From Ostreococcus lucimarinus (lineage: Eukaryota), in the NCBI GenBank assembly GCA_000092065.1, contig CP000582.1: a DNA stretch of 64,000 nt; one strand, 5' to 3'. The notes beneath the pieces were generated by a model. It searched no databases. It saw nothing but the letters and a program-made list of their open reading frames with translations, and was not told where the DNA came from. The position numbers were made by a program, and so were the translations under genes. This document shows positions 11,911 through 56,798 of the stretch, piece by piece. Numbering within the stretch: position 1 is the first letter of the stretch; every line of letters begins with the position of its first letter.

Positions 11911-12032
11911 CAAAATGAAATGCAGCAGCGCGGCATTATACGGAAGTGCGAGGAAACGCTTTCAACTAAATCACTGCAGACTAGTCGTCCCCTGATCTTG
12001 CATGCTTAGATTCTGCATACTTGACGGCACGT

Positions 12033-15197: not shown

Positions 15198-15214
15198 GAG
15201 GATTTGCATATTAT

Positions 15215-42454: not shown

Positions 42455-42646
42455 CTGCGACCGGGTGCACGCGTGGATCGAAAAGCGAGCAACTGTTCAG
42501 CTGTTTTTTGCATCTTACGTTGAGGAAGGGAGGTTTCGCGGGTTCGCTTAGTTTCTTAGTCGTCTTTTCCGTCTTGTCGAAGTGCTCGACGTTAAGTAAT
42601 TTAATATATTTGACATCAGAAATAAATATTTATTTCTTGTGATATA

Positions 42647-45600
42647 GTGACATATGACATCGTATTACAACGTTTTACCCCCACTTCGCAAGGACCGACC
42701 ACCCCATATCCATGTGCTATAAAAGCTAACTCAAAATGGAAGCTCGTACGTCTGAAACGCTTGGCGCTCGAGCGTTTCCGATGTCCGATGTTAACGCGCC
42801 ACAAACCGGAGAGCGTTCAGAATGGTACGCCCCGAAATGAATCACGAATGAGCAATCTAGACACACGCGCTATGTCGAACCCTTACTTTCAGGTCGGGCG
42901 ATGGGACTGCACGGACGAGCTCGAGGGGTGTCAATTCTCCGCGCCACATACGTCGGTGTCAGTTCCTAATTTCGAAGAGATTCAGACCCTTCACTACACC
43001 TGCGTGTATGAAGTGGCGATCACGTGTACACAGCGGCATGATATGCATAACGATGAGTTCGCGCATGTACTTAGTTCTGTCATCGAGCTCGCAAATCGCG
43101 TTGACCTGACACGACTTAGGCAACATCACTCCATAGATAACTTTGCCACACACGTTCTCACTTTTCGGTTCATTCTGGACCTGTTGAGGCAAACTTATCA
43201 GGAATACATCAAAGGAAGCATAGAAAATAATTCGTTTGAGCATGTCGAATTTACTTTCAACAATTGCATGGATGGTACGCACGGAATGGCAACATGCTTT
43301 AAACCGAATAAAAAGCATAGTCACCTTTGTTACATTTTGGATATTTCGCAGGCAGAAAGAAGTTGCAATGGTCGTACTGATGACACAAAATGCGTGCACG
43401 ACAAAATTACTATGAACGATCGCGTTCTTTCCGCGGCTAAGATCCCAGACAACGCAGTGAATAAACAATTCAGTGCTAGTATACTCAATGATGTGTATGG
43501 TTTCGATTCAAGTCTGTTCCATATTTCTCAGTCGGAAACCCTCTGCATGGACCCACAACAACGACTATTACTTCTTGCAGCAGCAGACTTATACCTGAGT
43601 AACACACGTGTTTGTCAACACGACGACTCCTTCTGCGTGCACGTCGGTGTATCGTGGAATGACTTTGAGGAAATTCGCAGAAAGTATAGTGCAGACTTTT
43701 TCTCCACTTATGATTCGACGGGAACATCAATAAGTGTCGCATCGGGTAGAATTGCGTATTATTTTGATTTCAAAGGGTGTGCTGTGACGATTGATACGGC
43801 TTGTTCATCATCTTTGGTTGCGTTGCATCAATCCATGTACGCAGCTGGCTCGCTCCGTGAATCAAGTGCACTTGTATGTGGCATCAACTTGATTTTGACA
43901 ACCACGATGACACATCGATTTCAGCTTGCTGGAATGATGTCTTCAGAGCATCGATGTATGACATTTGATGCACGCGCGGATGGCTACGTCCGGAGTGAGG
44001 CATGCAACATCGTACTCTTACACTTCAATGGCTTCACAAAAACTCATAGGAATGTACTGCGGCATGACGTTCATATGTCATGCGTCGTCAATCAAGATGG
44101 AACATCAACTGGACTTACGGCACCTAATGGAACAGCTCAGCGGAACCTGATGAATGAGTTACTATCGGACGTTTATAACCCTTCAAAACACGTTGGTGCT
44201 AAAATACATGCCCACGGCACAGGTACGCCTCTTGGGGATCCGATAGAGGTGTTTGCTATCAATTCTGCCCTCTCGTTTTCGTCACTGTGCAGGCTGTATG
44301 TGTCAGAAAAGTCGATGCGAGGGCACACAGAACCTGCTTCAGGTCTATGCAGCACCATACTTGCTTTCGTATCAGGTGCACAGTGCAAGCTACATGGTCA
44401 ACCACATTTACAGCAGTTAAACAATCATATACTAACATCGGTTGATGAAAGTATTTTTCAGCGTTCACTGCATTCCAGTTTTCCCTTAACTTCTATGGCG
44501 AGTGTCACCACAGTAAGCTCCTTCGCGTTCCAAGGGACGAACGCAATGGCTTCACTGACATATATCGACAAATGCAGTATTAGAGTGATTCGCAACACGT
44601 CAGGTCTGAGATCTTTGGTCAAGTTGGAGACTGAATCCCCTGTAAGACTCCCGTACACATTTTCTTGCCTTAGCATCGTCAATGGGAAAATGATACAGCT
44701 AACTTCAATGATTCACGACAAAACATTGAAGCGACTTTTGGATCATCGTGTAGCTGATATGCATCTTATGCCAGCCACAGGCCATCTTGAACTTGAAAGA
44801 GAGCTCACGAAGTGCGCTCTCGTAAGGAATGAACCATATCTTCTGACAAAGATCGCATTTATGCTGCCTCTCAAGCTTGATGAAAGCAATCAACTTATCA
44901 CAGAGATGAACACACATGGTCGCTTACGCGTTGGATGTGGCTCTGGCATATCCAATTACTGGTGTAGTACTGCACGACTTCAAATACCAGTAGGACGTGC
45001 CTGGTGCACGGACCGTACTTTTTATCTGACTAGTAAACTCGTTTCTCGGCGTTTCAAAGGTGCGACCGCAACAATAGCAGGGACGACGCCAATTCTCGAT
45101 TCACAAAATGTCGTGAATCCGTGTATCCAGGATGCGAGTCTACAATGCTCTGCATACGTCTTGAACACGTCAGCTTTCGCATCTGATACAACCTACATGG
45201 ACTGCGTATCGTTACTTAAGCTACCAACAACAATTCAAGACGTCATAGTTGTTAATCAGACAGGAAAAATACTTGTTAGATCGACGCATGTTGACATGTT
45301 GCAGAAGACGCAGCATGTGACTGAAAGTAATAACTCTGTCACAAGTAACTCTTCGAGTAACAATAAAACGCAGACATGGATACATCGTTTACTGTGTAAA
45401 GTATCAACCGTACGGATGAAAGCTGGCTTACGCACTCGCACATGCTTGGAACTCGCGAGATTGTTGTACCACGCGAGACAACAAAGAGTGCTGATATCAA
45501 ATATGCAAAACTTGCGTGAAGTAGGCAGTTTACATGCTCCAGAACTGATGCCCATCATGCGCGAAATGGGTCGTAAGTCAATGCAAGATATTAATTCGGC

Positions 45601-48600
45601 TAGTGCCTCTCTTTGCGCGGTTGCGCTGCTGCAGGCTTGCGGCGCTCGTGCGCGCGTTTCCGGCGCCCACGTGCGTGCAAACGACATCGTCCACGAGGAC
45701 GCTTCGGCCGCGCCCGCAGTCTGTGGATCGTGCGTGCGCGCCACCGTGCAATCTTCCGCGCAGGAACGCAGCGAGCCATTGGTGCTGAGTGTCGCGAGCG
45801 CCCCGCACACCGCGCCAGCCCGAGCGTTGCGATCGATCGCCGCCGGGGCGTCGATCGCCGGGGCGCTGTGCGTTGAGCGGCTGCTTCCGGCGTTCGGTCG
45901 CCGGACGCCCGCCGCGTCGCGCGACGGCGCGGCGACGACCACGGCGTCGCCGGCACCGAAAGTCTCGAGCGTGTTCGTGACTGGCGGTCTGGGCGCGTTG
46001 GGTCAGACTTCGGCGGCGTGGTACGCGCATCGAGGCGTTCGCCACGCCTACTTGACTGGTCGCCGCGGGCGCGGAGAGTCCCTTCTGCTGCGATGGTCGT
46101 CGCGCGGCGGTACCGACGTGAGCGCATTGCACGTGCTTCGCGTCGACGCGTGTGCGACCGACGAGGCGTCGTACGGCGGTGCGCGCGCGCACGCGCGCGT
46201 GCGCGCACACGGCGTGCTGCACGCGGGCGGCGTGCTACGCGACTCTTTGACTGCTCGCCAATCCGCGTCGGCCCATCGATACGTGTGGTCGTCCAAAGTA
46301 GTGTCCGCGCACGCATTGCTCCGCCAGTGCGTCGGCGTCGAGCGCGGCGCGCGTCACATCGCGCTGTTCTCGTCGGTGGCGGCGCTGCTGGGGAGTCCAG
46401 GGCAATGCAACTACAGCGCGGCCAACGCCGCGCTGGACGCGCGAGCCGCACACGAGTGGTGCCGCGGGTACGCGGTGCAATCCGTGCAGTGGGGCGCGTG
46501 GGACGGCGCGGGAATGGCGCTGACAAACGCGTCTGTACTCAGGAACGCGCGCACGACAGGCATCGGCGTGCTCGATCCGCAAGCCGGGCTCGGGGCCGTA
46601 CACGTCGCGCTTCAGGGCGCATCAGTGACGGGTCGCTGGCGGGCAATCCAAGGCGTCCTGGCCGTCGTCCCGTTCCAGTGGTCCGTGCTCGCGCGCGCGC
46701 AGCGCTCGCGCGCGCTGATTGCGGAGTACCGCGCGGAGTCGGCGCGGTCGAGCGCTCCAGTCGCCGTCCATCCGGGCGCCGAGGAAGACGCGGCGCGCGA
46801 TGTGTCAGATGAGAGCGTGCGGCAGATCGTGGCCTCCGCCGTGACGCGCGCGCTCGGCAGAGACGTGTCGGTGGACGCGTCGCTCATGGAAGAGGGCCTA
46901 GACTCGCTCGCGGCGGTCGAGCTCGGAGGGGCGTTACAAAAGGAAACGGGCGTGAACATGCCGGCCACGCTGGCATTTGACTACCCGACGATCACCGCGA
47001 TATCTGGGTACCTGAAGGGTGCGATGCTGGCGCGATCGCGTGCGCGCCAATCGAGCGGCGCGGCGTCCAGCGCCGCTCGCACGCGCGCCGCGAGCGGCGC
47101 GGTCGCGCATTCGCGCGACTCGATGCCAGGTATTGCATCCAACGCGCGCGAAATCTTGGGTCTTGCGCCCGTTGTTATGGCCATCAGACGGAGCGTGCGA
47201 CGACTCGACGCGGATGATCGAGAGCCAAAGCCTGCTCGACATGGCGGCTCGGCGTTGTTTTCATCGTTCGTGAGGTGCGTCATGGCAGAGCGAGCCTCTG
47301 AAGATCGCTTCGACACGCCATCGTTGGGCAGGCAGCCGAGCGCGACAGCGCGCGTGGTCTCCTTGACGAAAGCCAGAGATTTCACTACACAAGCTCTCGA
47401 CAGCATGCCGAAATGCAACGAGATTGAGCTGAGCGTCGTCAGCGCTGTGTCGAGTAAGGCATCAGGCGCGCACGATGCCGTGCGTGTGAACAACATGCGA
47501 CATGCGTGCGGCGAAGTGTGTGATCCACAAAGCTCAAAATCGCACGAGTTCGTCGCTCGGCGTCTTGTGCAGTTTGGGTACTTCATCGAGCGCAGCTTGT
47601 TTGACGGGGAGCAGTTCTCCGTAACGGCGCACGAGGCGCGGTTGATGGACCCGCAGCAGCGCGTGCTCCTGGAGAACGCGCTCGCCGCGACGAGTGCGAC
47701 GCCGCACAGCGCGCCGAAGCCAGCCACAGCCGTGTCCGTCGGCGCTTGGACGTCTCAGTACGCAGACATGTGCCGCGTGTACGAGCCAACGCCGGGGCCG
47801 TACTCTGGCGTTGCTTCCGCCTTGAGCGTGCTGTGCGGTCGCGTATCGTACACGTTTGGTATGCGTGGCCCGTCCGTGTGTGTCGACACCGCGTGCTCCT
47901 CCTCGCTCGTGGCCGCGCATGTTGCGAGCTCTCACTTGCGCGATGGATCGTGCGAGGACGCCCTCGTCGCCGGCGTGAGCGTGAACGTCGGCATCGGCAC
48001 CTTCCTCGTGGCCACCGCCGCGAGCATGCTATCGTTCGATGGTCGGTGCAAAACCTTGGATGCCAGCGCCGACGGTTACGCCAAGGGCGAGTGCTGCGTG
48101 GTCCTGCGCGTGTCGGTGGACGGGGCGAGCGCTGGAGCGCCCAAAGCGCCCGATCTTCCAAACGCCGAGTCTCCCTCTCTCGCTCTTCTCGAACAGACCG
48201 GTGTGAACCAGGATGGACGGTCGAGCTCGCTCACCGCACCAAACGGGCCGTCGCAGCAGGCACTCGTGGCCGATGCGCTTCTCCGCTCGGGGCTGCACGG
48301 CGACGCGCTCGGCAGGCTGGAGATGCACGGCACGGGTACTTCGCTGGGAGATCCGATAGAGGTCGGCGCCGCGCTTGAGGTTCTCGCGCCGCCGACGCGC
48401 GCGGACCGGGCGCCGTCCAGGGGCCCCGCGCTCACGCTTGAGGGCGTGAAGCCACGCGCTGGCCACTGCGAACCAGGGGCTGGCGCGGTTGGGTTGCTGT
48501 TTGCGATGGCAAACTTGACGGAGCGAGCCGTCGCGTCCCTCGTCCACCTGCGCCAGCTCAACCCTCACGTCGAGGCCGCGACGCGCCGAAACGCACCGTC

Positions 48601-51600
48601 GCCGCATGCGCGCGCGCCGGTGCTCGCGCGACAAGGCATGCCGCGACCGGATGACGGCGCGTCTGAGGCTGGAGCAGCGGACGCTGCTCGAGCGCGCGTG
48701 CGGCGATCCGGCGTGAGCGGCTTCGCGTTCCAGGGCACAAACGCGCACGCAATCATGGCCCGGGGACCCGGACAGGCGACTGCGCCCGGGTACACGGGAA
48801 GCACGCACACGGCGGCGCGTGCGTGGGAGCGTCAGCGCCACTGGTGCGCGCCAGAACGGCACTGCCTCATCGAGTCCGTGCGCGCTCTGCATCCTCGCGA
48901 GGGAGACTCGAGCGCGTTGGCGCGGTCGTGCGTGCGCCTGTGTCGGTCCGCGTCGCTCGCTGGCATGCTTGATCACGCCGTCGGGCTCCGGACGCTGCTA
49001 CCAGGCACAGCGCACGTCGAGATATGTCGAGCCATGGCGGGCGCGCTGGCAGACCAGCCGCTCGCCGACATCTCGCTGTCGCACGTATCTTTTGCAGCGC
49101 CCCTCGAGCTTCGAGCGCCGACGACCGACGTGCTGTGCGACGTCACGCCGCAAGGCGTGGCCCGCGTGGGCGTGCGCGTGTCGTCGTCCTCTGCCGCCGC
49201 GCCGTTCCTCGCGGGCGCGCTCAGCCGCAGAAGCGCCTCAAGAATTACTGCGTCTCCGGCGCACCTCTCGCGAGGACCGGCGATGCCCGCGCTGGACGTG
49301 CAGCCTTGTGTTCACGGCGCGAGCTGGCTGCGCTCGTCGCAGCGACGAGGCCCGGGCGCGGAGCACCGCGTGTACGGCGACATACGCGCGCGTCAGATGT
49401 CCACGCTGTCGGCTGCGGCGTATCACTCGCCGCCCGCAGTGCTCGATGCCGCGCTGCACGCGCTCAGCGCGTGCGCGCCGCCGCCGGGTAGCGATGCGAC
49501 AGAAGAGAGCCCGCACGTCCCGGCCACGATCGGCGGCGTCCGCACGCGAGGCGGGCACTCGGACATATACCGCGCCCGGTTCGCGCTCGCGACGGCTCCG
49601 CCTGAGCGCGGGGAGCGGAACGCGTCCACGCGCAGATCTCGTCACCACCTGTGGGACTGGTCGAGTCTTTCGGCGGCGCATCGAGGGTGCGTGGTGCACG
49701 CGCTGGAGTCTCGACGACTCGGTGGCGCCGCGGTCGTGCGCTCGCGAGCACAACAGCGCTCGAGGGCACCGCCGCCGCGTCGCGCGGCCGCGCCGCGTGT
49801 GCTTTATGGAGTCGGGCAACAGCGCGCGTGCGGCGCGGCGGATGGCCAGGGCGCGCGTCGACGCTCAACCCTCAACTCGCAGTGCTTTGTGGACGACGCG
49901 TCGCACCGCCGCGAGCTGATGGAGACCCACGCGTCACCATCGATCGCGCAAGGCAGCACGCGAAGCAGCACGCGCGCCTCTCTTTGCGCGGTTGCGCTGC
50001 TGCAGGCTTGCGGCGCTCGTGCGCGCGTTTCCGGCGCCCACGTGCGTGCAAACGACATCGTCCACGAGGACGCTTCGGCCGCGCCCGCAGTCTGTGGATC
50101 GTGCGTGCGCGCCACCGTGCAGTCTTCCGCGCAGGAACGCAGCGAGCCATTGGTGCTGAGTGTCGCGAGCGCCCCGCACACCGCGCCAGCCCGAGCGTTG
50201 CGATCGATCGCCGCCGGGGCGTCGATCGCCGGGGCGCTGTGCGTTGAGCGTCTGCTTCCGACGTTCGGTCGCCGGACGCCCGCCGCGTCGCGCGACGGCG
50301 CGGCGACGACCACGGCGTCGCCGGCACCGAAAGTCTCGAGCGTGTTCGTGACTGGCGGTCTGGGCGCGTTGGGTCAGACTTCGGCGGCGTGGTACGCGCA
50401 TCGAGGCGTTCGCCACGCCTACTTGACTGGTCGCCGCGGGCGCGGAGAGTCCCTTCTGCTGCGATGGTCGTCGCGCGGCGGTACCGACGTGAGCGCATTG
50501 CACGTGCTTCGCGTCGACGCGTGTGCGACCGACGAGGCGTCGTACGGCGGTGCGCGCGCGCACGCGCGCGTGCGCGCACACGGCGTGCTGCACGCGGGCG
50601 GCGTGCTACGCGACTCTTTGACTGCTCGCCAATCCGCGTCGGCCCATCGATACGTGTGGTCGTCCAAAGTAGTGTCCGCGCACGCATTGCTCCGCCAGTG
50701 CGTCGGCGTCGAGCGCGGCGCGCGTCACATCGCGCTGTTCTCGTCGGTGGCGGCGCTGCTGGGGAGTCCAGGGCAATGCAACTACAGCGCGGCCAACGCC
50801 GCGCTGGACGCGCGAGCCGCACACGAGTGGTGCCGCGGGTACGCGGTGCAATCCGTGCAGTGGGGCGCGTGGGACGGCGCGGGAATGGCGCTGACAAACG
50901 CGTCTGTACTCAGGAACGCGCGCACGACAGGCATCGGCGTGCTCGATCCGCAAGCCGGGCTCGGGGCCGTACACGTCGCGCTTCAGGGCGCATCAGTGAC
51001 GGGTCGCTGGCGGGCAATCCAAGGCGTCCTGGCCGTCGTCCCGTTCCAGTGGTCCGTGCTCGCGCGCGCGCAGCGCTCGCGCGCGCTGATTGCGGAGTAC
51101 CGCGCGGAGTCGGCGCGGTCGAGCGCTCCAGTCGCCGTCCATCCGGGCGCCGAGGAAGACGCGGCGCGCGATGTGTCAGATGAGAGCGTGCGGCAGATCG
51201 TGGCCTCCGCCGTGACGCGCGCGCTCGGCAGAGACGTGTCGGTGGACGCGTCGCTCATGGAAGAGGGCCTAGACTCGCTCGCGGCGGTCGAGCTCGGAGG
51301 GGCGTTACAAAAGGAAACGGGCGTGAACATGCCGGCCACGCTGGCATTTGACTACCCGACGATCACCGCGATATCTGGGTACCTGAAGGGTGCGATGCTG
51401 GCGCGATCGCGTGCGCGCCAATCGAGCGGCGCGGCGTCCAGCGCCGCTCGCACGCGCGCCGCGAGCGGCGCGGTCGCGCATTCGCGACGTACAACCATTA
51501 CTCAGCTCCCTCGTCTACGTCTATCATACGTTCCGCATGAAGTCAGCCGACGAACGACTCTTGGCATTAGCGGTCAATATTCTCACGAGCTTAGACACTT

Positions 51601-54600
51601 TAGCTCTGCGGGACCTTCGACCAGTAACTTTGAGGGAGTCCTCTTTGTTCGCATTCATAACTCCACCAAGCCCTTACCCGTGCATCCATATTTCATTGGC
51701 AACTTTTTGCGTTGTGACGAACTCGAGTTCGGCTTGTTTGGCGCACCGCACAGCGAATGGACTACTCTGGACGCGCGGCAGATTCTCTTGATTGAGAGTG
51801 TACACACTATCCAGCTGAACAACAGTTCAGACGTTTCATTGCGCACTCTAGAGACGACGGCTGTTCTTGTTGGAGCACAAGCGGTAGATTCAACTGACGA
51901 GCATAGCGTTGAGATACAGTACAACGCCTACTCTGGCGTTGCTTCCGCCTTGAGCGTGCTGTGCGGTCGCGTATCGTACACGTTTGGTATGCGTGGCCCG
52001 TCCGTGTGTGTCGACACCGCGTGCTCCTCCTCGCTCGTGGCCGCGCATGTTGCGAGCTCTCACTTGCGCGATGGATCGTGCGAGGACGCCCTCGTCGCCG
52101 GCGTGAGCGTGAACGTCGGCATCGGCACCTTCCTCGTGGCCACCGCCGCGAGCATGCTATCGTTCGATGGTCGGTGCAAAACCTTGGATGCCAGCGCCGA
52201 CGGTTACGCCAAGGGCGAGTGCTGCGTGGTCCTGCGCGTGTCGGTGGACGGGGCGAGCGCTGGAGCGCCCAAAGCGCCCGATCTTCCAAACGCCGAGTCT
52301 CCCTCTCTCGCTCTTCTCGAACAGACCGGTGTGAACCAGGATGGACGGTCGAGCTCGCTCACCGCACCAAACGGGCCGTCGCAGCAGGCACTCGTGGCCG
52401 ATGCGCTTCTCCGCTCGGGGCTGCACGGCGACGCGCTCGGCAGGCTGGAGATGCACGGCACGGGTACTTCGCTGGGAGATCCGATAGAGGTCGGCGCCGC
52501 GCTTGAGGTTCTCGCGCCGCCGACGCGCGCGGACCGGGCGCCGTCCAGGGGCCCCGCGCTCACGCTTGAGGGCGTGAAGCCACGCGCTGGCCACTGCGAA
52601 CCAGGGGCTGGCGCGGTTGGGTTGCTGTTTGCGATGGCAAACTTGACGGAGCGAGCCGTCGCGTCCCTCGTCCACCTGCGCCAGCTCAACCCTCACGTCG
52701 AGGCCGCGACGCGCCGAAACGCACCGTCGCCGCATGCGCGCGCGCCGGTGCTCGCGCGACAAGGCATGCCGCGACCGGATGACGGCGCGTCTGAGGCTGG
52801 AGCAGCGGACGCTGCTCGAGCGCGCGTGCGGCGATCCGGCGTGAGCGGCTTCGCGTTCCAGGGCACAAACGCGCACGCAATCATGGCCCGGGGACCCGGA
52901 CAGGCGACTGCGCCCGGGTACACGGGAAGCACGCACACGGCGGCGCGTGCGTGGGAGCGTCAGCGCCACTGGTGCGCGCCAGAACGGCACTGCCTCATCG
53001 AGTCCGTGCGCGCTCTTCATCCTCGCGAGGGAGACTCGAGCGCGTTGGCGCGGTCGTGCGTGCGCCTGTGTCGGTCCGCGTCGCTCGCTGGCATGCTTGA
53101 TCACGCCATCGGGCTCCGGACGCTACTACCAGGCACAGCGCACGTCGAGATATGTCGAGCCATGGCGGGCGCGCTGGCAGACCAGCCGCTCGCCGACATC
53201 TCGCTGTCGCACGTATCTTTTGCAGCGCCCCTCGAGCTTCGAGCGCCGACGACCGACGTGCTGTGCGACGTCACGCCGCAAGGCGTGGCCCGCGTGGGCG
53301 TGCGCGTGTCGTCGTCCTCTGCCGCCGCGCCGTTCCTCGCGGGCGCGCTCAGCCGCAGAAGCGCCTCAAGAATTACTGCGTCTCCGGCGCACCTCTCGCG
53401 AGGACCGGCGATGCCCGCGCTGGACGTGCAGCCTTGTGTTCACGGCGCCATCAGACGGAGCGTGCGACGACTCGACGCGGATGATCGAGAGCCAAAGCCT
53501 GCTCGACATGGCGGCTCGGCGTTGTTTTCATCGTTCGTGAGGTGCGTCATGGCAGAGCGAGCCTCTGAAGATCGCTTCGACACGCCATCGTTGGGCAGGC
53601 AGCCGAGCGCGACAGCGCGCGTGGTCTCCTTGACGAAAGCCAGAGATTTCACTACACAAGCTCTCGACAGCATGCCGAAATGCAACGAGATTGAGCTGAG
53701 CGTCGTCAGCGCTGTGTCGAGTAAGGCATCAGGCGCGCACGATGCTGTGCGTGTGAACAACATGCGACATGCGTGCGGCGAAGTGTGTGATCCACAAAGC
53801 TCAAAATCGCACGAGTTCGTCGCTCGGCATCTTGTGCAGTTTGGGTACTTCATCGAGCGCAGCTTGTTTGACGGGGAGCAGTTCTCCGTAACGGCGCACG
53901 AGGCGCGGTTGATGGACCCGCAGCAGCGCGTGCTCCTGGAGAACGCGCTCGCCGCGACGAGCGCGACGCCGCACAGCGCGCCGAAGCCAGCCACAGCCGT
54001 GTCCGTCGGCGCTTGGACGTCTCAGTACGCAGACATGTGCCGCGTGTACGAGCCAACGCCGGGGCCGTACTCTGGCGTTGCTTCCGCCTTGAGCGTGCTG
54101 TGCGGTCGCGTATCGTACACGTTTGGTATGCGTGGCCCGTCCGTGTGTGTCGACACCGCGTGCTCCTCCTCGCTCGTGGCCGCGCATGTTGCGAGCTCTC
54201 ACTTGCGCGATGGATCGTGCGAGGACGCCCTCGTCGCCGGCGTGAGCGTGAACGTCGGCATCGGCACCTTCCTCGTGGCCACCGCCGCGAGCATGCTATC
54301 GTTCGATGGTCGGTGCAAAACCTTGGATGCCAGCGCCGACGGTTACGCCAAGGGCGAGTGCTGCGTGGTCCTGCGCGTGTCGGTGGACGGGGCGAGCGCT
54401 GGAGCGCCCAAAGCGCCCGATCTTCCAAACGCCGAGTCTCCCTCTCTCGCTCTTCTCGAACAGACCGGTGTGAACCAGGATGGACGGTCGAGCTCGCTCA
54501 CCGCACCAAACGGGCCGTCGCAGCAGGCACTCGTGGCCGATGCGCTTCTCCGCTCGGGGCTGCACGGCGACGCGCTCGGCAGGCTGGAGATGCACGGCAC

Positions 54601-56623
54601 AGGTACTTCGCTGGGAGATCCGATAGAGGTCGGCGCCGCGCTTGAGGTTCTCGCGCCGCCGACGCGCGCGGACCGGGCGCCGTCCAGGCCCCCCGCGCTC
54701 ACGCTTGAGGGCGTGAAGCCACGCGCTGGCCACTGCGAACCAGGGGCTGGCGCGGTTGGGTTGCTGTTTGCGATGGCAAACTTGACGGAGCGAGCCGTCG
54801 CGTCCCTCGTCCACCTGCGCCAGCTCAACCCTCACGTCGAGGCCGCGACGCGCCGAAACGCACCGTCGCCGCATGCGCGCGCGCCGGTGCTCGCGCGACA
54901 AGGCATGCCGCGACCGGATGACGGCGCGTCTGAGGCTGGAGCAGCGGACGCTGCTCGAGCGCGCGTGCGGCGATCCGGCGTGAGCGGCTTCGCGTTCCAG
55001 GGCACAAACGCGCACGCAATCATGGCCCGGGGACCCGGACAGGCGACTGCGCCCGGGTACACGGGAAGCACGCACACGGCGGCGCGTGCGTGGGAGCGTC
55101 AGCGCCACTGGTGCGCGCCAGAACGGCACTGCCTCATCGAGTCCGTGCGCGCTCTTCATCCTCGCGAGGGAGACTCGAGCGCGTTGGCGCGGTCGTGCGT
55201 GCGCCTGTGTCGGTCCGCGTCGCTCGCTGGCATGCTTGATCACGCCATCGGGCTCCGGACGCTACTACCAGGCACAGCGCACGTCGAGATATGTCGAGCC
55301 ATGGCGGGCGCGCTGGCAGACCAGCCGCTCGCCGACATCTCGCTGTCGCACGTATCTTTTGCAGCGCCCCTCGAGCTTCGAGCGCCGACGACCGACGTGC
55401 TGTGCGACGTCACGCCGCAAGGCGTGGCCCGCGTGGGCGTGCGCGTGTCGTCGTCCTCTGCCGCCGCGCCGTTCCTCGCGGGCGCGCTCAGCCGCAGAAG
55501 CGCCTCAAGAATTACTGCGTCTCCGGCGCACCTCTCGCGAGGACCGGCGATGCCCGCGCTGGACGTGCAGCCTTGTGTTCACGGCGCGAGCTGGCTGCGC
55601 TCGTCGCAGCGACGAGGCCCGGGCGCGGAGCACCGCGTGTACGGCGACATACGCGCGCGTCAGATGTCCACGCTGTCGGCTGCGGCGTATCACTCGCCGC
55701 CCGCAGTGCTCGATGCCGCGCTGCACGCGCTCAGCGCGTGCGCGCCGCCGCCGGGTAGCGATGCGACAGAAGAGAGCCCGCACGTCCCGGCCACGATCGG
55801 CGGCGTCCGCACGCGAGGCGGGCACTCGGACATGTACCGCGCCCGGTTCGCGCTCGCGACGGCTCCGCCTGAGCGCGGGGAGCGGAACGCGTCCACGCGC
55901 AGATCTCGTCACCACCTGTGGGACTGGTCGAGTCTTTCGGCGGCGCATCGAGGGTGCGTGGTGCACGCGCTGGAGTCTCGACGACTCGGTGGCCTCACGA
56001 CGAATTCATTTTATCATAGCTTTACGTCTACGCAGGCATATAAGTTGGCTCATATTCCACGGCCAGACATCCTATCGCAGTCTTTCACTTCAATGAAGAC
56101 TATAAATGCTGTCGACAAAGCTAGCAGCACATTTACAGAACGCAGTAGTGATGCGATGGAAATTGTTAACGCCGTGCAACGCGAGATTTTGGAAATTTTA
56201 TCAACATTAACGACCAGTCCTGTAAGTTTAGATGATACACTTGCGAGCCACGGATTGGACTCACTGGGCATTGCATATTTTTTTATTCAAGTTGGCAAAC
56301 GGTTCAATGTTGAAGTGACTGTTGACAGTCTTGGCACGAACACCACAGTCAGTAGTATAGTGCATCAGATATCACAGATGCTTAGTGCAAGGGTGATTTT
56401 CCTACACACCAAGGACCTGGTGCGCGAGCGAAAAGCCGACAGCTCCTCAAGAAGAGGAAGGAGCACTGCGATCACATCGATGGTGTCTGCATACCGTCGA
56501 CACTTGCAGTCAACTGAATTCGAGCCCAAAGCCTGTTTTGCAAGAGGCGTACTTGCTTGCGCAATATTTACTATATTTATCATTGCGTACGGATATCACG
56601 CACACAGATTCGACATGTTTTAG
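42647..56623 (+). CDS. Giant type I modular polyketide synthase, 4658 aa, lacking acyltransferase in every module and lacking a terminal thioesterase. Domain order: N-terminal unknown domain, KS0, DH-like, KR, ACP, KS, DH-like, KR, ACP, KS (N-terminally diverged), KS, DH-like, ACP.
   Basis: A continuous reading frame with four ketosynthase domains. Each has the Cys active site (DTACSSSLVA), the first His (AHGTGT / MHGTGT) and the second His (RGHTEPASG / AGHCEPGAG). Two ketoreductases have Rossmann FVTGGLGALG and the catalytic motif GQCNYSAANAALD. Three carrier domains carry the phosphopantetheine Ser (EEGLDSLAAVEL x2, SHGLDSLGIAYF). There are DH-like segments (LDHRVADMHLMPATGHLE; LDHAVGLRTLLPGTAHVE). 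No GHSxG acyltransferase motif and no TE domain are present. The first ATG in frame is about 42786; the track start is GTG 42647. Internal composition is about 70% GC versus about 45% for the N- and C-terminal parts. Confidence 0.85.
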   Translation: MTYDIVLQRFTPTSQGPTTPYPCAIKANSKWKLVRLKRLALERFRCPMLTRHKPESVQNGTPRNESRMSNLDTRAMSNPYFQVGRWDCTDELEGCQFSAPHTSVSVPNFEEIQTLHYTCVYEVAITCTQRHDMHNDEFAHVLSSVIELANRVDLTRLRQHHSIDNFATHVLTFRFILDLLRQTYQEYIKGSIENNSFEHVEFTFNNCMDGTHGMATCFKPNKKHSHLCYILDISQAERSCNGRTDDTKCVHDKITMNDRVLSAAKIPDNAVNKQFSASILNDVYGFDSSLFHISQSETLCMDPQQRLLLLAAADLYLSNTRVCQHDDSFCVHVGVSWNDFEEIRRKYSADFFSTYDSTGTSISVASGRIAYYFDFKGCAVTIDTACSSSLVALHQSMYAAGSLRESSALVCGINLILTTTMTHRFQLAGMMSSEHRCMTFDARADGYVRSEACNIVLLHFNGFTKTHRNVLRHDVHMSCVVNQDGTSTGLTAPNGTAQRNLMNELLSDVYNPSKHVGAKIHAHGTGTPLGDPIEVFAINSALSFSSLCRLYVSEKSMRGHTEPASGLCSTILAFVSGAQCKLHGQPHLQQLNNHILTSVDESIFQRSLHSSFPLTSMASVTTVSSFAFQGTNAMASLTYIDKCSIRVIRNTSGLRSLVKLETESPVRLPYTFSCLSIVNGKMIQLTSMIHDKTLKRLLDHRVADMHLMPATGHLELERELTKCALVRNEPYLLTKIAFMLPLKLDESNQLITEMNTHGRLRVGCGSGISNYWCSTARLQIPVGRAWCTDRTFYLTSKLVSRRFKGATATIAGTTPILDSQNVVNPCIQDASLQCSAYVLNTSAFASDTTYMDCVSLLKLPTTIQDVIVVNQTGKILVRSTHVDMLQKTQHVTESNNSVTSNSSSNNKTQTWIHRLLCKVSTVRMKAGLRTRTCLELARLLYHARQQRVLISNMQNLREVGSLHAPELMPIMREMGRKSMQDINSASASLCAVALLQACGARARVSGAHVRANDIVHEDASAAPAVCGSCVRATVQSSAQERSEPLVLSVASAPHTAPARALRSIAAGASIAGALCVERLLPAFGRRTPAASRDGAATTTASPAPKVSSVFVTGGLGALGQTSAAWYAHRGVRHAYLTGRRGRGESLLLRWSSRGGTDVSALHVLRVDACATDEASYGGARAHARVRAHGVLHAGGVLRDSLTARQSASAHRYVWSSKVVSAHALLRQCVGVERGARHIALFSSVAALLGSPGQCNYSAANAALDARAAHEWCRGYAVQSVQWGAWDGAGMALTNASVLRNARTTGIGVLDPQAGLGAVHVALQGASVTGRWRAIQGVLAVVPFQWSVLARAQRSRALIAEYRAESARSSAPVAVHPGAEEDAARDVSDESVRQIVASAVTRALGRDVSVDASLMEEGLDSLAAVELGGALQKETGVNMPATLAFDYPTITAISGYLKGAMLARSRARQSSGAASSAARTRAASGAVAHSRDSMPGIASNAREILGLAPVVMAIRRSVRRLDADDREPKPARHGGSALFSSFVRCVMAERASEDRFDTPSLGRQPSATARVVSLTKARDFTTQALDSMPKCNEIELSVVSAVSSKASGAHDAVRVNNMRHACGEVCDPQSSKSHEFVARRLVQFGYFIERSLFDGEQFSVTAHEARLMDPQQRVLLENALAATSATPHSAPKPATAVSVGAWTSQYADMCRVYEPTPGPYSGVASALSVLCGRVSYTFGMRGPSVCVDTACSSSLVAAHVASSHLRDGSCEDALVAGVSVNVGIGTFLVATAASMLSFDGRCKTLDASADGYAKGECCVVLRVSVDGASAGAPKAPDLPNAESPSLALLEQTGVNQDGRSSSLTAPNGPSQQALVADALLRSGLHGDALGRLEMHGTGTSLGDPIEVGAALEVLAPPTRADRAPSRGPALTLEGVKPRAGHCEPGAGAVGLLFAMANLTERAVASLVHLRQLNPHVEAATRRNAPSPHARAPVLARQGMPRPDDGASEAGAADAARARVRRSGVSGFAFQGTNAHAIMARGPGQATAPGYTGSTHTAARAWERQRHWCAPERHCLIESVRALHPREGDSSALARSCVRLCRSASLAGMLDHAVGLRTLLPGTAHVEICRAMAGALADQPLADISLSHVSFAAPLELRAPTTDVLCDVTPQGVARVGVRVSSSSAAAPFLAGALSRRSASRITASPAHLSRGPAMPALDVQPCVHGASWLRSSQRRGPGAEHRVYGDIRARQMSTLSAAAYHSPPAVLDAALHALSACAPPPGSDATEESPHVPATIGGVRTRGGHSDIYRARFALATAPPERGERNASTRRSRHHLWDWSSLSAAHRGCVVHALESRRLGGAAVVRSRAQQRSRAPPPRRAAAPRVLYGVGQQRACGAADGQGARRRSTLNSQCFVDDASHRRELMETHASPSIAQGSTRSSTRASLCAVALLQACGARARVSGAHVRANDIVHEDASAAPAVCGSCVRATVQSSAQERSEPLVLSVASAPHTAPARALRSIAAGASIAGALCVERLLPTFGRRTPAASRDGAATTTASPAPKVSSVFVTGGLGALGQTSAAWYAHRGVRHAYLTGRRGRGESLLLRWSSRGGTDVSALHVLRVDACATDEASYGGARAHARVRAHGVLHAGGVLRDSLTARQSASAHRYVWSSKVVSAHALLRQCVGVERGARHIALFSSVAALLGSPGQCNYSAANAALDARAAHEWCRGYAVQSVQWGAWDGAGMALTNASVLRNARTTGIGVLDPQAGLGAVHVALQGASVTGRWRAIQGVLAVVPFQWSVLARAQRSRALIAEYRAESARSSAPVAVHPGAEEDAARDVSDESVRQIVASAVTRALGRDVSVDASLMEEGLDSLAAVELGGALQKETGVNMPATLAFDYPTITAISGYLKGAMLARSRARQSSGAASSAARTRAASGAVAHSRRTTITQLPRLRLSYVPHEVSRRTTLGISGQYSHELRHFSSAGPSTSNFEGVLFVRIHNSTKPLPVHPYFIGNFLRCDELEFGLFGAPHSEWTTLDARQILLIESVHTIQLNNSSDVSLRTLETTAVLVGAQAVDSTDEHSVEIQYNAYSGVASALSVLCGRVSYTFGMRGPSVCVDTACSSSLVAAHVASSHLRDGSCEDALVAGVSVNVGIGTFLVATAASMLSFDGRCKTLDASADGYAKGECCVVLRVSVDGASAGAPKAPDLPNAESPSLALLEQTGVNQDGRSSSLTAPNGPSQQALVADALLRSGLHGDALGRLEMHGTGTSLGDPIEVGAALEVLAPPTRADRAPSRGPALTLEGVKPRAGHCEPGAGAVGLLFAMANLTERAVASLVHLRQLNPHVEAATRRNAPSPHARAPVLARQGMPRPDDGASEAGAADAARARVRRSGVSGFAFQGTNAHAIMARGPGQATAPGYTGSTHTAARAWERQRHWCAPERHCLIESVRALHPREGDSSALARSCVRLCRSASLAGMLDHAIGLRTLLPGTAHVEICRAMAGALADQPLADISLSHVSFAAPLELRAPTTDVLCDVTPQGVARVGVRVSSSSAAAPFLAGALSRRSASRITASPAHLSRGPAMPALDVQPCVHGAIRRSVRRLDADDREPKPARHGGSALFSSFVRCVMAERASEDRFDTPSLGRQPSATARVVSLTKARDFTTQALDSMPKCNEIELSVVSAVSSKASGAHDAVRVNNMRHACGEVCDPQSSKSHEFVARHLVQFGYFIERSLFDGEQFSVTAHEARLMDPQQRVLLENALAATSATPHSAPKPATAVSVGAWTSQYADMCRVYEPTPGPYSGVASALSVLCGRVSYTFGMRGPSVCVDTACSSSLVAAHVASSHLRDGSCEDALVAGVSVNVGIGTFLVATAASMLSFDGRCKTLDASADGYAKGECCVVLRVSVDGASAGAPKAPDLPNAESPSLALLEQTGVNQDGRSSSLTAPNGPSQQALVADALLRSGLHGDALGRLEMHGTGTSLGDPIEVGAALEVLAPPTRADRAPSRPPALTLEGVKPRAGHCEPGAGAVGLLFAMANLTERAVASLVHLRQLNPHVEAATRRNAPSPHARAPVLARQGMPRPDDGASEAGAADAARARVRRSGVSGFAFQGTNAHAIMARGPGQATAPGYTGSTHTAARAWERQRHWCAPERHCLIESVRALHPREGDSSALARSCVRLCRSASLAGMLDHAIGLRTLLPGTAHVEICRAMAGALADQPLADISLSHVSFAAPLELRAPTTDVLCDVTPQGVARVGVRVSSSSAAAPFLAGALSRRSASRITASPAHLSRGPAMPALDVQPCVHGASWLRSSQRRGPGAEHRVYGDIRARQMSTLSAAAYHSPPAVLDAALHALSACAPPPGSDATEESPHVPATIGGVRTRGGHSDMYRARFALATAPPERGERNASTRRSRHHLWDWSSLSAAHRGCVVHALESRRLGGLTTNSFYHSFTSTQAYKLAHIPRPDILSQSFTSMKTINAVDKASSTFTERSSDAMEIVNAVQREILEILSTLTTSPVSLDDTLASHGLDSLGIAYFFIQVGKRFNVEVTVDSLGTNTTVSSIVHQISQMLSARVIFLHTKDLVRERKADSSSRRGRSTAITSMVSAYRRHLQSTEFEPKACFARGVLACAIFTIFIIAYGYHAHRFDMF
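43500..44570 (+). other. PKS domain: KS0 (ketosynthase, host-like 45% GC codon usage)
   Basis: Product is MDPQQRLLLLAAADLY...AVTIDTACSSSLVALHQSMYAAG...HAHGTGTPLGDPIEV...MRGHTEPASG...SFAFQGTNAMASL. Confidence 0.8.
45607..47119 (+). repeat. PKS repeat unit R1 copy 1 (KR-ACP coding unit, about 1.51 kb, about 72% GC)
   Basis: Begins ctctttgcgcggttgcgctgctgcaggcttgc. It is more than 99% identical to 49980..51486. It contains the KR (FVTGGLGALG ... NYSAANAALDA) and the ACP (GLDSLAAVEL). Confidence 0.85.
47183..49321 (+). repeat. PKS repeat unit R2 copy a (KS + DH-like coding unit, 2139 bp)
   Basis: Runs from catcagacggagcgtgcgacg... to ...gccttgtgttcacggcgc. It encodes IRRSVRRLDADD...MDPQQRVLLENAL...VDTACSSSLVAAHVASSHL...EMHGTGTSLGDPIEV...RAGHCEPGAG...GFAFQGTNAHAIM...LDHAVGLRTLLPGTAHVE...PALDVQPCVHGA. 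It is followed by a 658-bp tail (49322..49979) before R1 copy 2. Confidence 0.85.
49980..51486 (+). repeat. PKS repeat unit R1 copy 2 (KR-ACP)
   Basis: The same sequence as 45607..47119, displaced by 4373 bp. It carries a handful of substitutions (for example PAFGRRTP becomes PTFGRRTP). The many spurious overlapping long ORFs on both strands here (for example 46018..46812 equals 50389..51183) are GC-richness artefacts. Confidence 0.85.
51487..51928 (+). other. Diverged, host-like (about 48% GC) segment inside the PKS repeat array. It encodes an alternative version of the KS N-terminal subdomain.
   Basis: In frame it gives ...CDELEFGLFGAPHSEWTTLDARQILLIESVHTIQL...TAVLVGAQAVDSTDEHSVEIQYNA. This parallels the GC-rich copies (...EARLMDPQQRVLLENAL...TAVSVGAWTSQYADMCRVYEPTPGP) at protein level, but shows no nucleotide identity. 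Confidence 0.6.
51929..53448 (+). repeat. PKS repeat unit R2 copy b (5'-truncated; corresponds to 47801..49321)
   Basis: Identity starts at tactctggcgttgcttccgccttgagc. The first about 620 bp of the unit are replaced by the diverged 45%-GC segment 51487..51928. Confidence 0.85.
53449..55587 (+). repeat. PKS repeat unit R2 copy c (full 2139-bp KS + DH-like unit) fused head-to-tail to copy b
   Basis: The junction ...gtgttcacggcgcc|atcagacggagcg joins the end of copy b directly to the start of the unit. It is followed by a partial tail 55588..55990, which matches 49322..49722. It differs from copy a by a few substitutions (RRLVQFGY becomes RHLVQFGY, SRGPALT becomes SRPPALT, GGHSDIY becomes GGHSDMY). 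Confidence 0.85.
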
Positions 56624-56726
56624 TTACCAACGTCACGGCGGTAGGCTCATTGCCCTTGTAATTCAACTCCGTTCTCAAAAAGTTGTCTGTTAAGTACTTT
56701 GAGCACTGTTCAGCTCTCACCGCTGA

Positions 56727-56792
56727 CTCCCGACAGGAGTTAGCTAAAACTCCTGACAGGAGTTAGCTAAAACTCCTGACAGGAGTTAGCGA
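56727..56792. repeat. Three tandem 22-bp units, each containing a short hairpin (ctcc[c/t]g-a-caggag), between the PKS stop and the next gene
   Basis: The sequence is gactcccgacaggagttagctaaaa ctcctgacaggagttagctaaaa ctcctgacaggagttagcgaaagg. The arms ctcctg/caggag pair across a 1-nt loop. It lies 104 bp after the PKS stop and ends 4 bp before the downstream GTG/ATG. Confidence 0.6.
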
Positions 56793-56798
56793 AAGGTG

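What the first reader, a model, noticed from the sequence alone, without database searches (positions are those of the whole stretch)
45607..55990. PKS internal modules are >99%-identical tandem duplications (1.5-kb KR-ACP unit x2; 2.14-kb KS-DH unit x3, one 5'-truncated)
The periods are 4373 bp (R1-linker-R2-tail) and 2139 bp (R2 copy b to copy c, fused head to tail at ...cacggcgcc|atcagacgg). The copies differ by only a few substitutions. This implies very recent module duplication or ongoing concerted evolution by unequal crossing-over or gene conversion. Module number is probably polymorphic, so product chain length could vary between strains. It is also exactly the type of structure that short-read assemblers collapse or expand, so the true copy number is uncertain.
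Basis: seen in the sequence. Interest (0 to 1): 0.8.

Follow-up and report, generated by a model that had tools for sequence, protein, structure and literature searches.

The report
Near-identical repeated modules in algal PKS
The repeats are real: one polyketide synthase gene of the tiny marine alga Ostreococcus lucimarinus contains almost identical copies of its internal modules, different assemblies of this alga carry different numbers of them, and this kind of module duplication in algal PKS genes has already been published.

Summary
Window 45605-55993 is built from near-identical blocks inside one 4658-codon ORF:
- R1 (KR-ACP): 1511 bp, two copies, 3 differences.
- R2 (linker-KS-DH): 2547 bp, two copies, 10 differences.
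- A third R2 fragment of 1523 bp.

Flanking proteins match Ostreococcus lucimarinus CCE9901 exactly. From the literature, this is the low-GC mating-type region of chromosome 2. The gene matches the catalogued AT-less (trans-AT) PKS OluPKS1, listed as 'KS-KR-ACP-KS-KR-ACP-KS2-ACP'.

Independent metagenome assemblies that are about 99-99.9% identical over the shared DNA carry one internal module (six, one apparently from long reads) or two (three). None has the reference's extra KS plus half-DH, which joins the next copy at a 2-bp microhomology. The exact copy number in CCE9901 rests on one assembly.

Near-identical modules in Ostreococcus PKS genes are already published.

What I did not find discussed in the papers I consulted: the repeat block is exactly a 70% GC island (GC3 0.80) in 45% GC DNA. 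The one unique insert inside it falls back to 49%. A second picoeukaryote PKS locus also has higher GC in its repeats. This suggests, but does not prove, GC-biased gene conversion among modules.

The parts
42647..56623 (+). Single open reading frame of the AT-less type I PKS (OluPKS1). The probable ATG is at 42788, giving 4611 aa.
   Evidence: ORF list. Pfam finds 4 KS, 2 KR, 3 ACP, 3-4 DH and no AT. The metagenome gene call P0001 starts MLTRHK, which is window 42788. The architecture matches 'KS-KR-ACP-KS-KR-ACP-KS2-ACP' given for OluPKS1, JGI 119561, in Shelest 2015 Table S2.
43442..44902 (+). KS1 plus a weak DH1. Unique, low GC (0.45).
   Evidence: Pfam hits at aa 266-576 and 683-752. DTACSSS, HGTGT and DPQQR motifs are present. 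GC3 is 0.44.
45605..47115 (+). R1a: KR1 (45968-46504) and ACP1 (46829-47014). It starts exactly at the GC jump.
   Evidence: KR motifs TGGLGALG and NYSAAN; ACP motif GLDSL.
47116..47179 (+). L64: the 64-bp spacer between R1 and R2 in module A. In the two-module metagenome alleles it is also present after the second R1.
47180..49726 (+). R2a: ACP-KS linker, KS2 (47549-48550) and complete DH2 (48965-49585).
   Evidence: Motifs present: DPQQR, DTACSSS, HGTGT, GH; DH His motif and DAALH.
49727..49975 (+). tail249: a GC-rich (0.73) bridge from DH2 to KR2. It is single-copy in the window and marks alleles with two or more modules.
   Evidence: It is present in 6 of 15 environmental cluster members and absent from the one-module contigs.
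49976..51486 (+). R1b: KR2 (50339-50875) and ACP2 (51200-51385). It has 3 differences from R1a.
51487..51925 (+). U439: a unique, low-GC (0.49) segment coding a divergent linker and KS N-terminus for KS3. It lacks DPQQR, is colinear with the O. tauri homologue, and is found only in this reference.
   Evidence: No hit in the protein collection, in the cluster members or in the exact-pattern scans.
51926..53446 (+). R2b: the KS3 core and only the N-terminal half of a DH, cut at aa 3601 before the DAALH motif. Its variant pattern is a mosaic, a-type at the 5' end and c-type at the 3' end.
53445..53448 (+). Head-to-tail junction R2b|R2c, in frame, with a 2-bp (GC) microhomology.
   Evidence: CACGGCGC (core end) + GCCATCAG (R2 start) gives CACGGCGCCATCAG. 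The junction peptide is absent from all 15 cluster members.
53447..55993 (+). R2c: linker, KS4 (53807-54817) and complete DH4 (55232-55849). It carries 8 private variants and ends exactly at the GC drop.
55994..56620 (+). Unique low-GC (0.445) 3' end holding the terminal ACP3 (56186-56365). No thioesterase domain was found.

Best explanation
The window is from Ostreococcus lucimarinus CCE9901, on an 895-kb record. From the literature this is chromosome 2, inside the low-GC, recombination-suppressed candidate MT- mating-type region (BOC1). The ORF 42647-56623 is the AT-less (trans-AT type) modular type I PKS catalogued as OluPKS1.

Its basic form is KS-DH-[KR-ACP-KS-DH]-ACP. The bracketed 4.1-kb block is a tandemly amplifiable unit.
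- One-block alleles exist in nature.
- Two-block alleles have the blocks separated by a 249-bp bridge, giving a 4371-bp period.
- The reference strain has two blocks plus an extra KS and half-DH. That extra piece arose when a module with an older, O. tauri-like KS N-terminus (U439) was joined, through a 2-bp microhomology, to the start of another R2 copy.

Shown here: the copies are kept 99.6-99.8% identical, the borders of identity are sharp, one KS is chimeric, and assemblies differ in module number.

Inferred: the mechanism. Because the region is thought not to recombine with a homologue, gain and loss most likely occur by unequal sister-chromatid exchange, intrachromatid recombination or replication slippage. 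Homogenisation most likely occurs by non-allelic gene conversion.

Functional consequence (inferred from standard PKS logic):
- Each added KR-ACP-KS-DH block should add one extension, reduction and dehydration cycle, so one-block and two-block alleles should make products that differ by one C2 unit.
- The reference's third KS has an intact Cys-His-His set, but it has no ACP of its own and its DH is truncated and dead. It is probably redundant, skipped or mildly disruptive.
For: Organism: the separase, STN7-like kinase, Utp6, arogenate dehydrogenase and DDE-Tnp4 ORFs are exact matches to XP_001416421.1, XP_001416427.1, XP_001416173.1, XP_001416172.1 and XP_001416176.1 of O. lucimarinus CCE9901, on an 895,087-bp record. 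The flanking genes are eukaryotic.

Gene identity: Shelest 2015 Table S2 lists OluPKS1 (JGI 119561) as trans-AT with 'KS-KR-ACP-KS-KR-ACP-KS2-ACP'. The neighbouring gene is OSTLU_119558.

Repeats. Domains and motifs.

Alleles:
- L001 equals window 42419-49726 joined directly to 55994-57246, which is one block and 2522 aa.
- L007, a 53-kb indel-rich contig named 'contig_16714', has the same one-block structure.
- L004, L005 and L006 have two blocks.
- Protein lengths 2522, 3979 and 4611 aa differ by exactly 4371 bp and 1896 bp.

Recombination:
- KS3 is chimeric.
- R2b is a-type at 48334 and 48422-3 and c-type at 48889, 48980 and 48997.
- The junction has a 2-bp microhomology.

Ancestry: an orthologue with the same kinase and UTP20 neighbours is single-block, 2347 aa.

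Not bacterial: the best relatives of the GC-rich block are Ostreococcus or unnamed Ostreococcus-like proteins (54-62% identity) and then green algae. Bacterial PKSs reach 40% at most.

Literature: near-identical modules in OluPKS3 and other algal PKSs; strain-to-strain PKS restructuring in O. tauri BOC1 seen with long reads; CCE9901 is MT- and the region has suppressed recombination.
Against: - The reference-specific part (U439, R2b and its junction) was seen in no other assembly, protein or contig. The exact structure in CCE9901 therefore rests on one assembly that I could not check against reads.
- The short-read two-block contigs have 100% identical copies, typical of an assembler traversing a loop, so their true copy number could be higher.
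- One-block short-read contigs could in principle be collapses. Only L007 looks long-read, and I infer that from its name and error pattern, not from metadata.
- The mosaic pattern of R2b rests on five mutational events. One switch has a chance probability of about 0.2, so it is weak on its own.
- Recent duplication alone and ongoing conversion cannot be cleanly separated with this few differences.
- No expression, product or trans-acting AT was examined.
Confidence: 0.8

Rival explanations
1. The reference arrangement is an assembly artefact. Under this view CCE9901 really has one or two clean modules, and the extra U439-R2b segment or the order of the copies was produced by mis-joining reads inside 99.7%-identical repeats.
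For: U439 and the R2b|R2c junction occur in no other data set. The mixed a/c variant pattern of R2b is what mis-assigned reads in a consensus could produce. Repeats of 1.5-2.5 kb exceed the length of a Sanger read (background knowledge).
Against: An assembler cannot invent 439 bp of in-frame coding sequence that aligns colinearly with the O. tauri homologue, nor a novel in-frame junction.

The unique links in the data are: 5' end to R1; R1-L64-R2; R1-U439-core; core to 3' part; core to R2 start; 3' part-tail-R1; 3' part to 3' end. The shortest path that uses each link once has the copy numbers of the window (inference). Only the order of the two modules could differ.

One frame stays open over all 14 kb.
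Confidence: 0.1
2. There was a single very recent duplication and nothing more. Under this view there is no ongoing gene conversion and no real polymorphism, and all differences between assemblies are collapses or expansions made by short-read assemblers.
For: The copies within L004 and within L005 are 100.000% identical, which is a loop-traversal signature. The low divergence (0.2-0.4%) fits a young duplication.
Against: In a population with only two-block alleles, the 5'-unique, block, 3'-unique path should break at the repeat borders. Yet six independent assemblies run straight through, including one long-read-like contig.

The chimeric KS3, with its abrupt switch from unalignable to 99.8% identical sequence at 51926, needs recombination between diverged modules, not simple duplication.

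Long-read work on O. tauri shows real PKS restructuring between cultures.
Confidence: 0.12
3. The 70% GC block is foreign DNA. Under this view it is either a recent transfer of modules from a GC-rich bacterium or a chimeric join with contaminant DNA.
For: The GC steps are very sharp, 0.44 to 0.71 at 45605 and back at 55993. A megablast search of the plasmid collection gave only short, roughly 50-bp Streptomyces matches.
Against: The closest relatives of the block are an O. tauri PKS fragment (60-62%; 72% in KR-ACP) and an Ostreococcus-like orthologue (54%). Bacteria reach 40% at most.

The orthologue in a deeply diverged lineage has a GC-rich block with the same borders, and the O. tauri protein shows the same GARP-rich / poor / rich pattern. 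The mosaic is therefore old and native.

The frame and domain order are continuous across both borders. Independent metagenome contigs contain the same borders.
Confidence: 0.02

Closest known systems
Module duplications in chlorophyte trans-AT PKSs, e.g. OluPKS3 modules 1-3 of the same species (Shelest et al. 2015, BMC Genomics 16:1015, PMC4661987)
   Same: Same organism and the same enzyme class: an AT-less, non-iterative type I PKS. Modules within one protein are 89-100% identical, and the authors read this as recent module duplication. OluPKS1 itself is listed there with four KS domains.
   Different: The paper discusses OluPKS3, not OluPKS1. It works at the protein level and on one genome. 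It does not report allele-level differences in module number, the truncated extra KS-DH, the chimeric KS, or the GC island.
Structural variation of giant PKS genes in the BOC1 low-GC region of Mamiellales (Valiadi et al., bioRxiv 10.1101/2025.04.21.649811)
   Same: PKS genes sit in the low-GC outlier region. Long reads showed extra modules and rearrangements between O. tauri cultures. PKS stretches stand out from the rest of BOC1 in CpG methylation and MNase coverage, in O. lucimarinus too.
   Different: That work concerns the largest PKS loci and differences between strains and species in O. tauri. It has no nucleotide-level repeat anatomy for OluPKS1. The text does not mention gene conversion.
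Mycolactone PKS (MLSA1/2, MLSB) of Mycobacterium ulcerans plasmid pMUM001 (from memory, not checked here)
   Same: Modules and domains of one assembly line are more than 97% identical at the nucleotide level. This is attributed to very recent duplication and recombination, and the loci are unstable and prone to deletion.
   Different: That system is bacterial, cis-AT and plasmid-borne, with uniform GC. There is no embedding in a non-recombining eukaryotic mating-type region.
Arm-to-arm gene conversion in Y-chromosome palindromes and ampliconic genes (from memory, not checked here)
   Same: Repeats inside a non-recombining sex-linked region are kept more than 99.9% identical by intrachromosomal gene conversion, reportedly with a GC bias.
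   Different: Those repeats are inverted and span whole genes in animals. Here they are direct repeats inside one coding sequence, and GC-biased conversion is not demonstrated.

Membership tests
AT-less (trans-AT type) modular type I PKS | KS domains with the catalytic Cys-His-His set | tested here: met
   DTACSSS, HGTGT and a downstream GH are present in all four KS domains. Pfam PF00109/PF02801 hits at E 1e-84 to 1e-154.
AT-less (trans-AT type) modular type I PKS | Carrier-protein domains with the phosphopantetheine serine (DSL) | tested here: met
   GLDSL at aa 1418, 2875 and 4537, inside PF00550 hits.
AT-less (trans-AT type) modular type I PKS | No integrated acyltransferase domain in any module | tested here: met
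   No PF00698 hit in the whole protein or in ten overlapping segments. Shelest 2015 lists OluPKS1 as trans-AT.
AT-less (trans-AT type) modular type I PKS | A free-standing AT that loads the ACPs | not tested
   None of the window ORFs I scanned is an AT. The rest of the genome was not available.
Concerted-evolution / tandem module array | Two or more modules with more than 98% nucleotide identity in tandem | tested here: met
   99.6-99.8% identity over 1.5-2.5 kb, with periods of 4371 and 2139 bp.
Concerted-evolution / tandem module array | Evidence of exchange between copies (mosaic copies, sharp identity borders that ignore domain limits) | tested here: met
   KS3 is the divergent U439 fused to a 99.8%-identical core, with the switch inside the KS domain at 51926. 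The a/c mosaic of R2b is only weak support.
Concerted-evolution / tandem module array | Copy number varies between individuals | tested here: inconclusive
   Assemblies show one-block, two-block and two-plus-partial forms. Collapse or loop traversal in short-read assemblies cannot be excluded without reads.
GC-biased gene conversion among repeats in a non-recombining region | Repeated segments are GC-richer than unique segments coding the same kind of domain in the same gene | tested here: met
   Window: KS1 and ACP3 (unique) have GC 0.45, against 0.70-0.71 for repeated KS2-4 and ACP1-2; U439 has 0.49. Independent locus L009: repeats 0.46 against 0.36-0.38 for unique PKS parts, with inside at or above outside at all 8 borders. 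Exception: tail249 is unique but has GC 0.73.
GC-biased gene conversion among repeats in a non-recombining region | Excess of AT-to-GC changes being fixed or spread between copies | tested here: inconclusive
   The private variants are 10 GC-to-AT against 2 AT-to-GC. That is what mutation bias alone predicts for new mutations in 70% GC DNA. There are too few sites and no outgroup nucleotides.
GC-biased gene conversion among repeats in a non-recombining region | The surrounding region lacks meiotic recombination | not testable with these tools
   Taken from the literature: Blanc-Mathieu 2017 and Benites 2021.
Horizontally acquired bacterial PKS segment | The nearest relatives of the GC-rich block are bacterial | tested here: not met
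   The top hits are Ostreococcus or green-algal proteins at 54-62% identity; bacterial hits reach 40% at most.

The most novel reading that the evidence does not exclude
The GC-rich island may not be a historical accident. It may be produced and maintained by GC-biased, non-allelic gene conversion among PKS modules inside a mating-type region that otherwise never recombines and is decaying towards AT.

On this reading, repeated PKS modules act as small 'recombination refuges', much like Y-chromosome palindromes. The segments that still convert (KR-ACP and KS core-DH) stay GC-rich and near-identical. Segments that have dropped out of conversion (U439, KS1, the terminal ACP) fall to the background GC.

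The same process would keep generating one-, two- and three-KS-block alleles, and so natural chain-length variants of an unknown algal polyketide linked to one mating type.
Probability: 0.3. Interest if true: 0.6.

Novelty: already known. Interest (0 to 1): 0.4.

Why it matters
For the finding as written, the value is confirmation and context. The repeats are real. They sit in a catalogued algal PKS (OluPKS1), and they fit the published picture that chlorophyte trans-AT PKSs grow by module duplication.

Three points go slightly further:
- Environmental assemblies suggest natural alleles with one or two internal modules. That gives a ready-made natural experiment linking module number to product length in a genetically tractable group of picoalgae.
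- The reference allele contains a dead-end KS and half-DH that should be checked before anyone models the assembly line from the reference annotation.
- Repeat borders coincide with a 25-point GC step inside a non-recombining mating-type region, and a second locus shows a similar pattern. This offers a compact test case for GC-biased gene conversion acting without meiotic crossing-over.

Tried and rejected
- Bacterial origin or engineered chimera. This was my first thought on seeing the GC step and a GAATTC near the 3' border. I rejected it once the flanks proved to be exact O. lucimarinus genes, the block's relatives proved algal, and independent metagenome contigs carried the same borders.
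- U439 as an intron. I rejected this. It is read through in frame, its length (439 bp; 431 bp between the nearest GT and AG) is not a multiple of three, and its translation aligns colinearly with the O. tauri protein.
- U439 as a copy of the KS1 region. Only a 25-residue weak motif match was found.
- Plasmid collection search. It gave only trivial 50-bp KS-motif hits.
- Retrieving the O. tauri locus for P0003. It is not on record, so I could only use amino-acid composition.
- Exact-pattern scans for U439 in JGI metagenome contigs and in prokaryotic genomes. All were negative.
- Third homologue search, with the low-GC N-terminus. Generic KS hits swamped the candidate list and it did not even return the identical P0001, so it was uninformative. 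It also shows that absence from these lists is not proof of absence.
- Direction-of-substitution test for biased conversion. There were too few sites, and the result is compatible with plain mutation bias.
- Generality check on further PKS loci. L010/L012 have flat GC and no long repeats. L011 and L013 have uniformly high GC and were not informative.
Full report
**1. The observation**

A self-comparison of 42-58 kb confirms the repeats:
- R1a 45605-47115 and R1b 49976-51486: 1511 bp, 3 mismatches, offset 4371.
- R2a 47180-49726 and R2c 53447-55993: 2547 bp, 10 mismatches, offset 6267.
- A third, shorter copy, R2b 51926-53448, matches the internal 1523 bp of R2a and of R2c, with 3 mismatches each.

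R2b runs straight into the first base of R2c. The junction reads CACGGCG|CCATCAGACGG and shares two bases (GC) between the partners.

Everything lies in one open frame, 42647-56623, 4658 codons. The one real correction is that the largest R2 unit is 2547 bp, and the third copy is truncated at both ends relative to it.

**2. Domain content**

Pfam on the whole protein and on ten overlapping pieces gives this order:

KS1-(weak DH1) | KR1-ACP1 | KS2-DH2 | KR2-ACP2 | KS3-DH3(N-terminal half only) | KS4-DH4 | ACP3

- No AT domain and no thioesterase domain were found.
- All four KS domains have DTACSSS, HGTGT and the second His.
- Both KR domains have TGGLGALG and NYSAAN.
- The ACPs have GLDSL.
- DH2 and DH4 have the His motif and DAALH.
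- DH3 is cut at residue 3601, before DAALH, and so should be inactive.

**3. Where the window comes from**

The flanks encode eukaryotic housekeeping proteins: separase, an SNF2 ATPase, cyclin, an XPG-like nuclease, a kinase, ArgRS and HDAC.

Five ORFs are exact matches to O. lucimarinus CCE9901 proteins on an 895,087-bp record.

From the literature, this is chromosome 2, the 'big outlier chromosome'. Its low-GC part is the candidate MT- mating-type locus, where recombination is suppressed. The low GC there is attributed to the absence of GC-biased gene conversion.

Shelest et al. 2015 list three O. lucimarinus PKSs with 14, 4 and 4 KS domains. Their Table S2 gives OluPKS1 (JGI 119561) as trans-AT with 'KS-KR-ACP-KS-KR-ACP-KS2-ACP'. 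That is the domain order found here, with the DH domains omitted. The neighbouring gene is OSTLU_119558.

**4. The unexpected feature: a GC island**

GC jumps from 0.44 to 0.71 exactly at the first base of R1a (45605). It falls back to 0.42-0.45 exactly after the last base of R2c (55993).

- Inside the island GC3 is 0.77-0.80 and GC2 is 0.60.
- In the unique 5' and 3' parts of the same ORF, GC3 is 0.44.
- The only low-GC stretch inside the island is U439 (51487-51925; GC 0.49), which is also the only long non-repeated insert.
- The 249-bp bridge (49727-49975) is unique but GC-rich, so it is an exception.

**5. The island is not foreign DNA**

A protein search with one R1-R2 period returned the following:
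- an identical 2522-aa metagenome protein;
- a 54%-identical 2347-aa orthologue;
- an O. tauri PKS fragment at 60-62% identity (72% in KR-ACP);
- other green-algal PKSs;
- bacterial PKSs at 40% identity or less.

The 2347-aa orthologue (L002, L003, L008) has the same kinase upstream and UTP20 downstream, although those neighbours are only 58% and 36% identical. It shows a milder GC island, 0.57-0.59 against 0.42-0.43, with the same borders.

At the amino-acid level, the pattern is GARP-rich KR-ACP, then a GARP-poor linker and KS N-terminus, then a GARP-rich KS core. O. lucimarinus module B, O. tauri and the diverged orthologue all share it. The compositional mosaic is therefore old and native.

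**6. Independent assemblies**

The 90%-identity cluster of the identical protein has 15 members from ENA, JGI and Logan. I aligned them, and five retrieved contigs, to the window.

(a) Six assemblies run from the unique 5' part through one R1-L64-R2 block straight into the unique 3' part (2522-aa products, with some contigs truncated). Among them is L007, a 53-kb contig. Its name and its many single-base indels suggest a long-read assembly.

(b) Three contigs (L004, L005, L006) carry two blocks joined by the 249-bp bridge (3979 aa). Three more fragments contain the bridge. In L004 and L005 the two 4122-bp copies are 100% identical, which is what an assembler gives when it walks a loop twice.

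(c) None contains U439 or the R2b|R2c junction peptide.
- The U439 peptide has no hit among the clustered proteins.
- Exact-pattern scans of JGI metagenome contigs and of prokaryotic genomes were negative. I had no positive control for those scans.

The lengths fit exactly: 2522 + 1457 aa (4371 bp) = 3979, and 3979 + 632 aa (1896 bp) = 4611, the reference product counted from the ATG at 42788.

**7. What the reference-specific part is**

Compared with the two-block allele, the reference replaces the second 64-bp spacer with U439 plus a KS core and half a DH.

U439 is genuine coding sequence. It aligns colinearly with the O. tauri fragment: GNFLRCDELEFGLFGAPHSEWTTLDARQILLIESV against GHFIQQVDFELRLFQIPFNEWRELNVQQLMLIETV. 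Both lack the DPQQR motif. The A-type KS N-terminus (47180-47796) and the diverged orthologue both keep that motif.

KS3 is therefore a chimera of an O. tauri-like N-terminus and a core 99.8% identical to KS2 and KS4. The switch lies inside the KS domain, which needs recombination or conversion between diverged modules.

R2b also carries a-type variants in its 5' half and c-type variants in its 3' half. With five events this is only suggestive (about 0.2 by chance).

An assembler cannot invent U439, the bridge or the junction. The shortest path that uses every unique link once has the copy numbers of the window (inference). I therefore consider the reference essentially right, but this is untested against reads.

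**8. Mechanism (inferred)**

The block KR-ACP-KS-DH is a tandemly amplifiable unit. Because this region is thought not to pair with a recombining homologue, the likely processes are:
- gain and loss by unequal sister-chromatid or intrachromatid recombination, or by replication slippage;
- homogenisation by non-allelic gene conversion;
- the 2-bp junction by microhomology-mediated joining.

Standard PKS logic predicts one more extension, ketoreduction and dehydration cycle per added block. The extra KS3 in the reference has no ACP of its own and a dead DH. Its effect cannot be predicted.

**9. The GC question**

Within one gene, the same domain types differ in GC according to whether they are repeated:
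- KS1 0.45 against KS2-4 0.70.
- ACP3 0.445 against ACP1-2 0.71.

An unrelated picoeukaryote locus, L009 (background GC 0.36), has the architecture KS-DH-KR-ACP-KS-DH-KR-ACP-KS-DH-ACP. It contains 99.6-99.9% repeats whose GC is 0.46, against 0.36-0.38 in its unique KS1 and ACP parts. GC steps of +0.12 occur at both borders of one repeat.

A multi-module PKS without long near-identical repeats (L010/L012) has flat GC.

This fits GC-biased conversion among modules, but it is not proof:
- The single-block orthologue also has an island.
- tail249 is an exception.
- The private variants (10 GC-to-AT against 2 AT-to-GC) are what mutation bias alone predicts.

**10. Comparison with what is known, and verdict**

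Near-identical modules in Ostreococcus PKSs, read as recent module duplication, are published. So is OluPKS1's four-KS architecture. A recent preprint reports long-read evidence of PKS restructuring in the same chromosomal compartment of O. tauri.

The finding as written is therefore correct but already known in kind.

The additions here are:
- the nucleotide-level anatomy;
- the apparent one-block and two-block alleles in nature;
- the reference-only truncated module;
- the coincidence of the repeat borders with the GC step.

The text of the preprint does not mention gene conversion.

Interest is moderate.

Noticed in passing
window 35430-40669: A 5.2-kb stretch with GC about 0.53 is replaced by about 177 bp in metagenome contig L007 but is present in L006, so it looks like an insertion polymorphism. 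It carries a Harbinger-type DDE_Tnp_4 ORF (36446-38239, = OSTLU_119558; its 90% cluster has 144 members) and a convergent XPG-like nuclease ORF (38231-40354).
   Followed up: partly
window 35433-35518 and 36192-36277: An 86-nt inverted repeat (97% complementary) brackets a 673-bp segment. That segment holds an ORF with no Pfam hit (35520-36086) and an exact 26-nt tandem duplication (35960-36011). It may be a foldback or MITE-like element next to the Harbinger copy.
   Followed up: no
L006 (JGI 3300047157, 360-kb contig), 9870/9871 and 17813: This two-block allele lacks window 44837-45604, and that junction causes a +1 frameshift. It also lacks 55443-56237, an in-frame loss that cuts into the terminal ACP. 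Both losses abut the GC island. It is either a degenerate allele or an assembly error at the repeat borders.
   Followed up: partly
L009 7582-8645 = 12361-13425; 10436-12111 = 14977-16652: A PKS from a different picoeukaryote (background GC 0.36, 38% identical) has its own 99.6-99.9% module repeats. GC is raised only in the repeated parts (0.46 against 0.36-0.38).
   Followed up: partly
L002 / L003 / L008 (orthologous locus): This is a single-block orthologue (2347-2501 aa) with conserved gene order: kinase, PKS, UTP20. The divergence is very deep (kinase 58%, UTP20 36% amino-acid identity). One copy is deposited as a 'Euryarchaeota archaeon' MAG protein (MBI20461.1), which is evidently mis-binned eukaryotic DNA. 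It could be the opposite mating-type haplotype or another Ostreococcus species.
   Followed up: partly
window 51489-51495 and 51919-51925: The 7-bp direct repeat GTACAAC occurs at both ends of the unique U439 segment, 430 bp apart. It may be chance or a trace of how the segment was joined.
   Followed up: no
window 56796-57677: A 293-codon ORF just downstream of the PKS has raised GC (0.56-0.59) and no Pfam hit. It is called as a 189-292-aa gene in the metagenome contigs.
   Followed up: no
L011 3327-3534, 9287-9483, 10805-11012, 14478-14669, 18548-18733: Five copies of a roughly 200-bp repeat, 84-91% identical, lie between the called exons of a GC-rich (0.70) PKS. They resemble the introner elements described in Micromonas.
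   Followed up: no
window 56560-56620 (C-terminus of the PKS): The protein ends with a hydrophobic stretch (GVLACAIFTIFIIAYGY) after ACP3, and Pfam found no thioesterase domain. It may be a membrane anchor, and how the chain is released is unclear.
   Followed up: no
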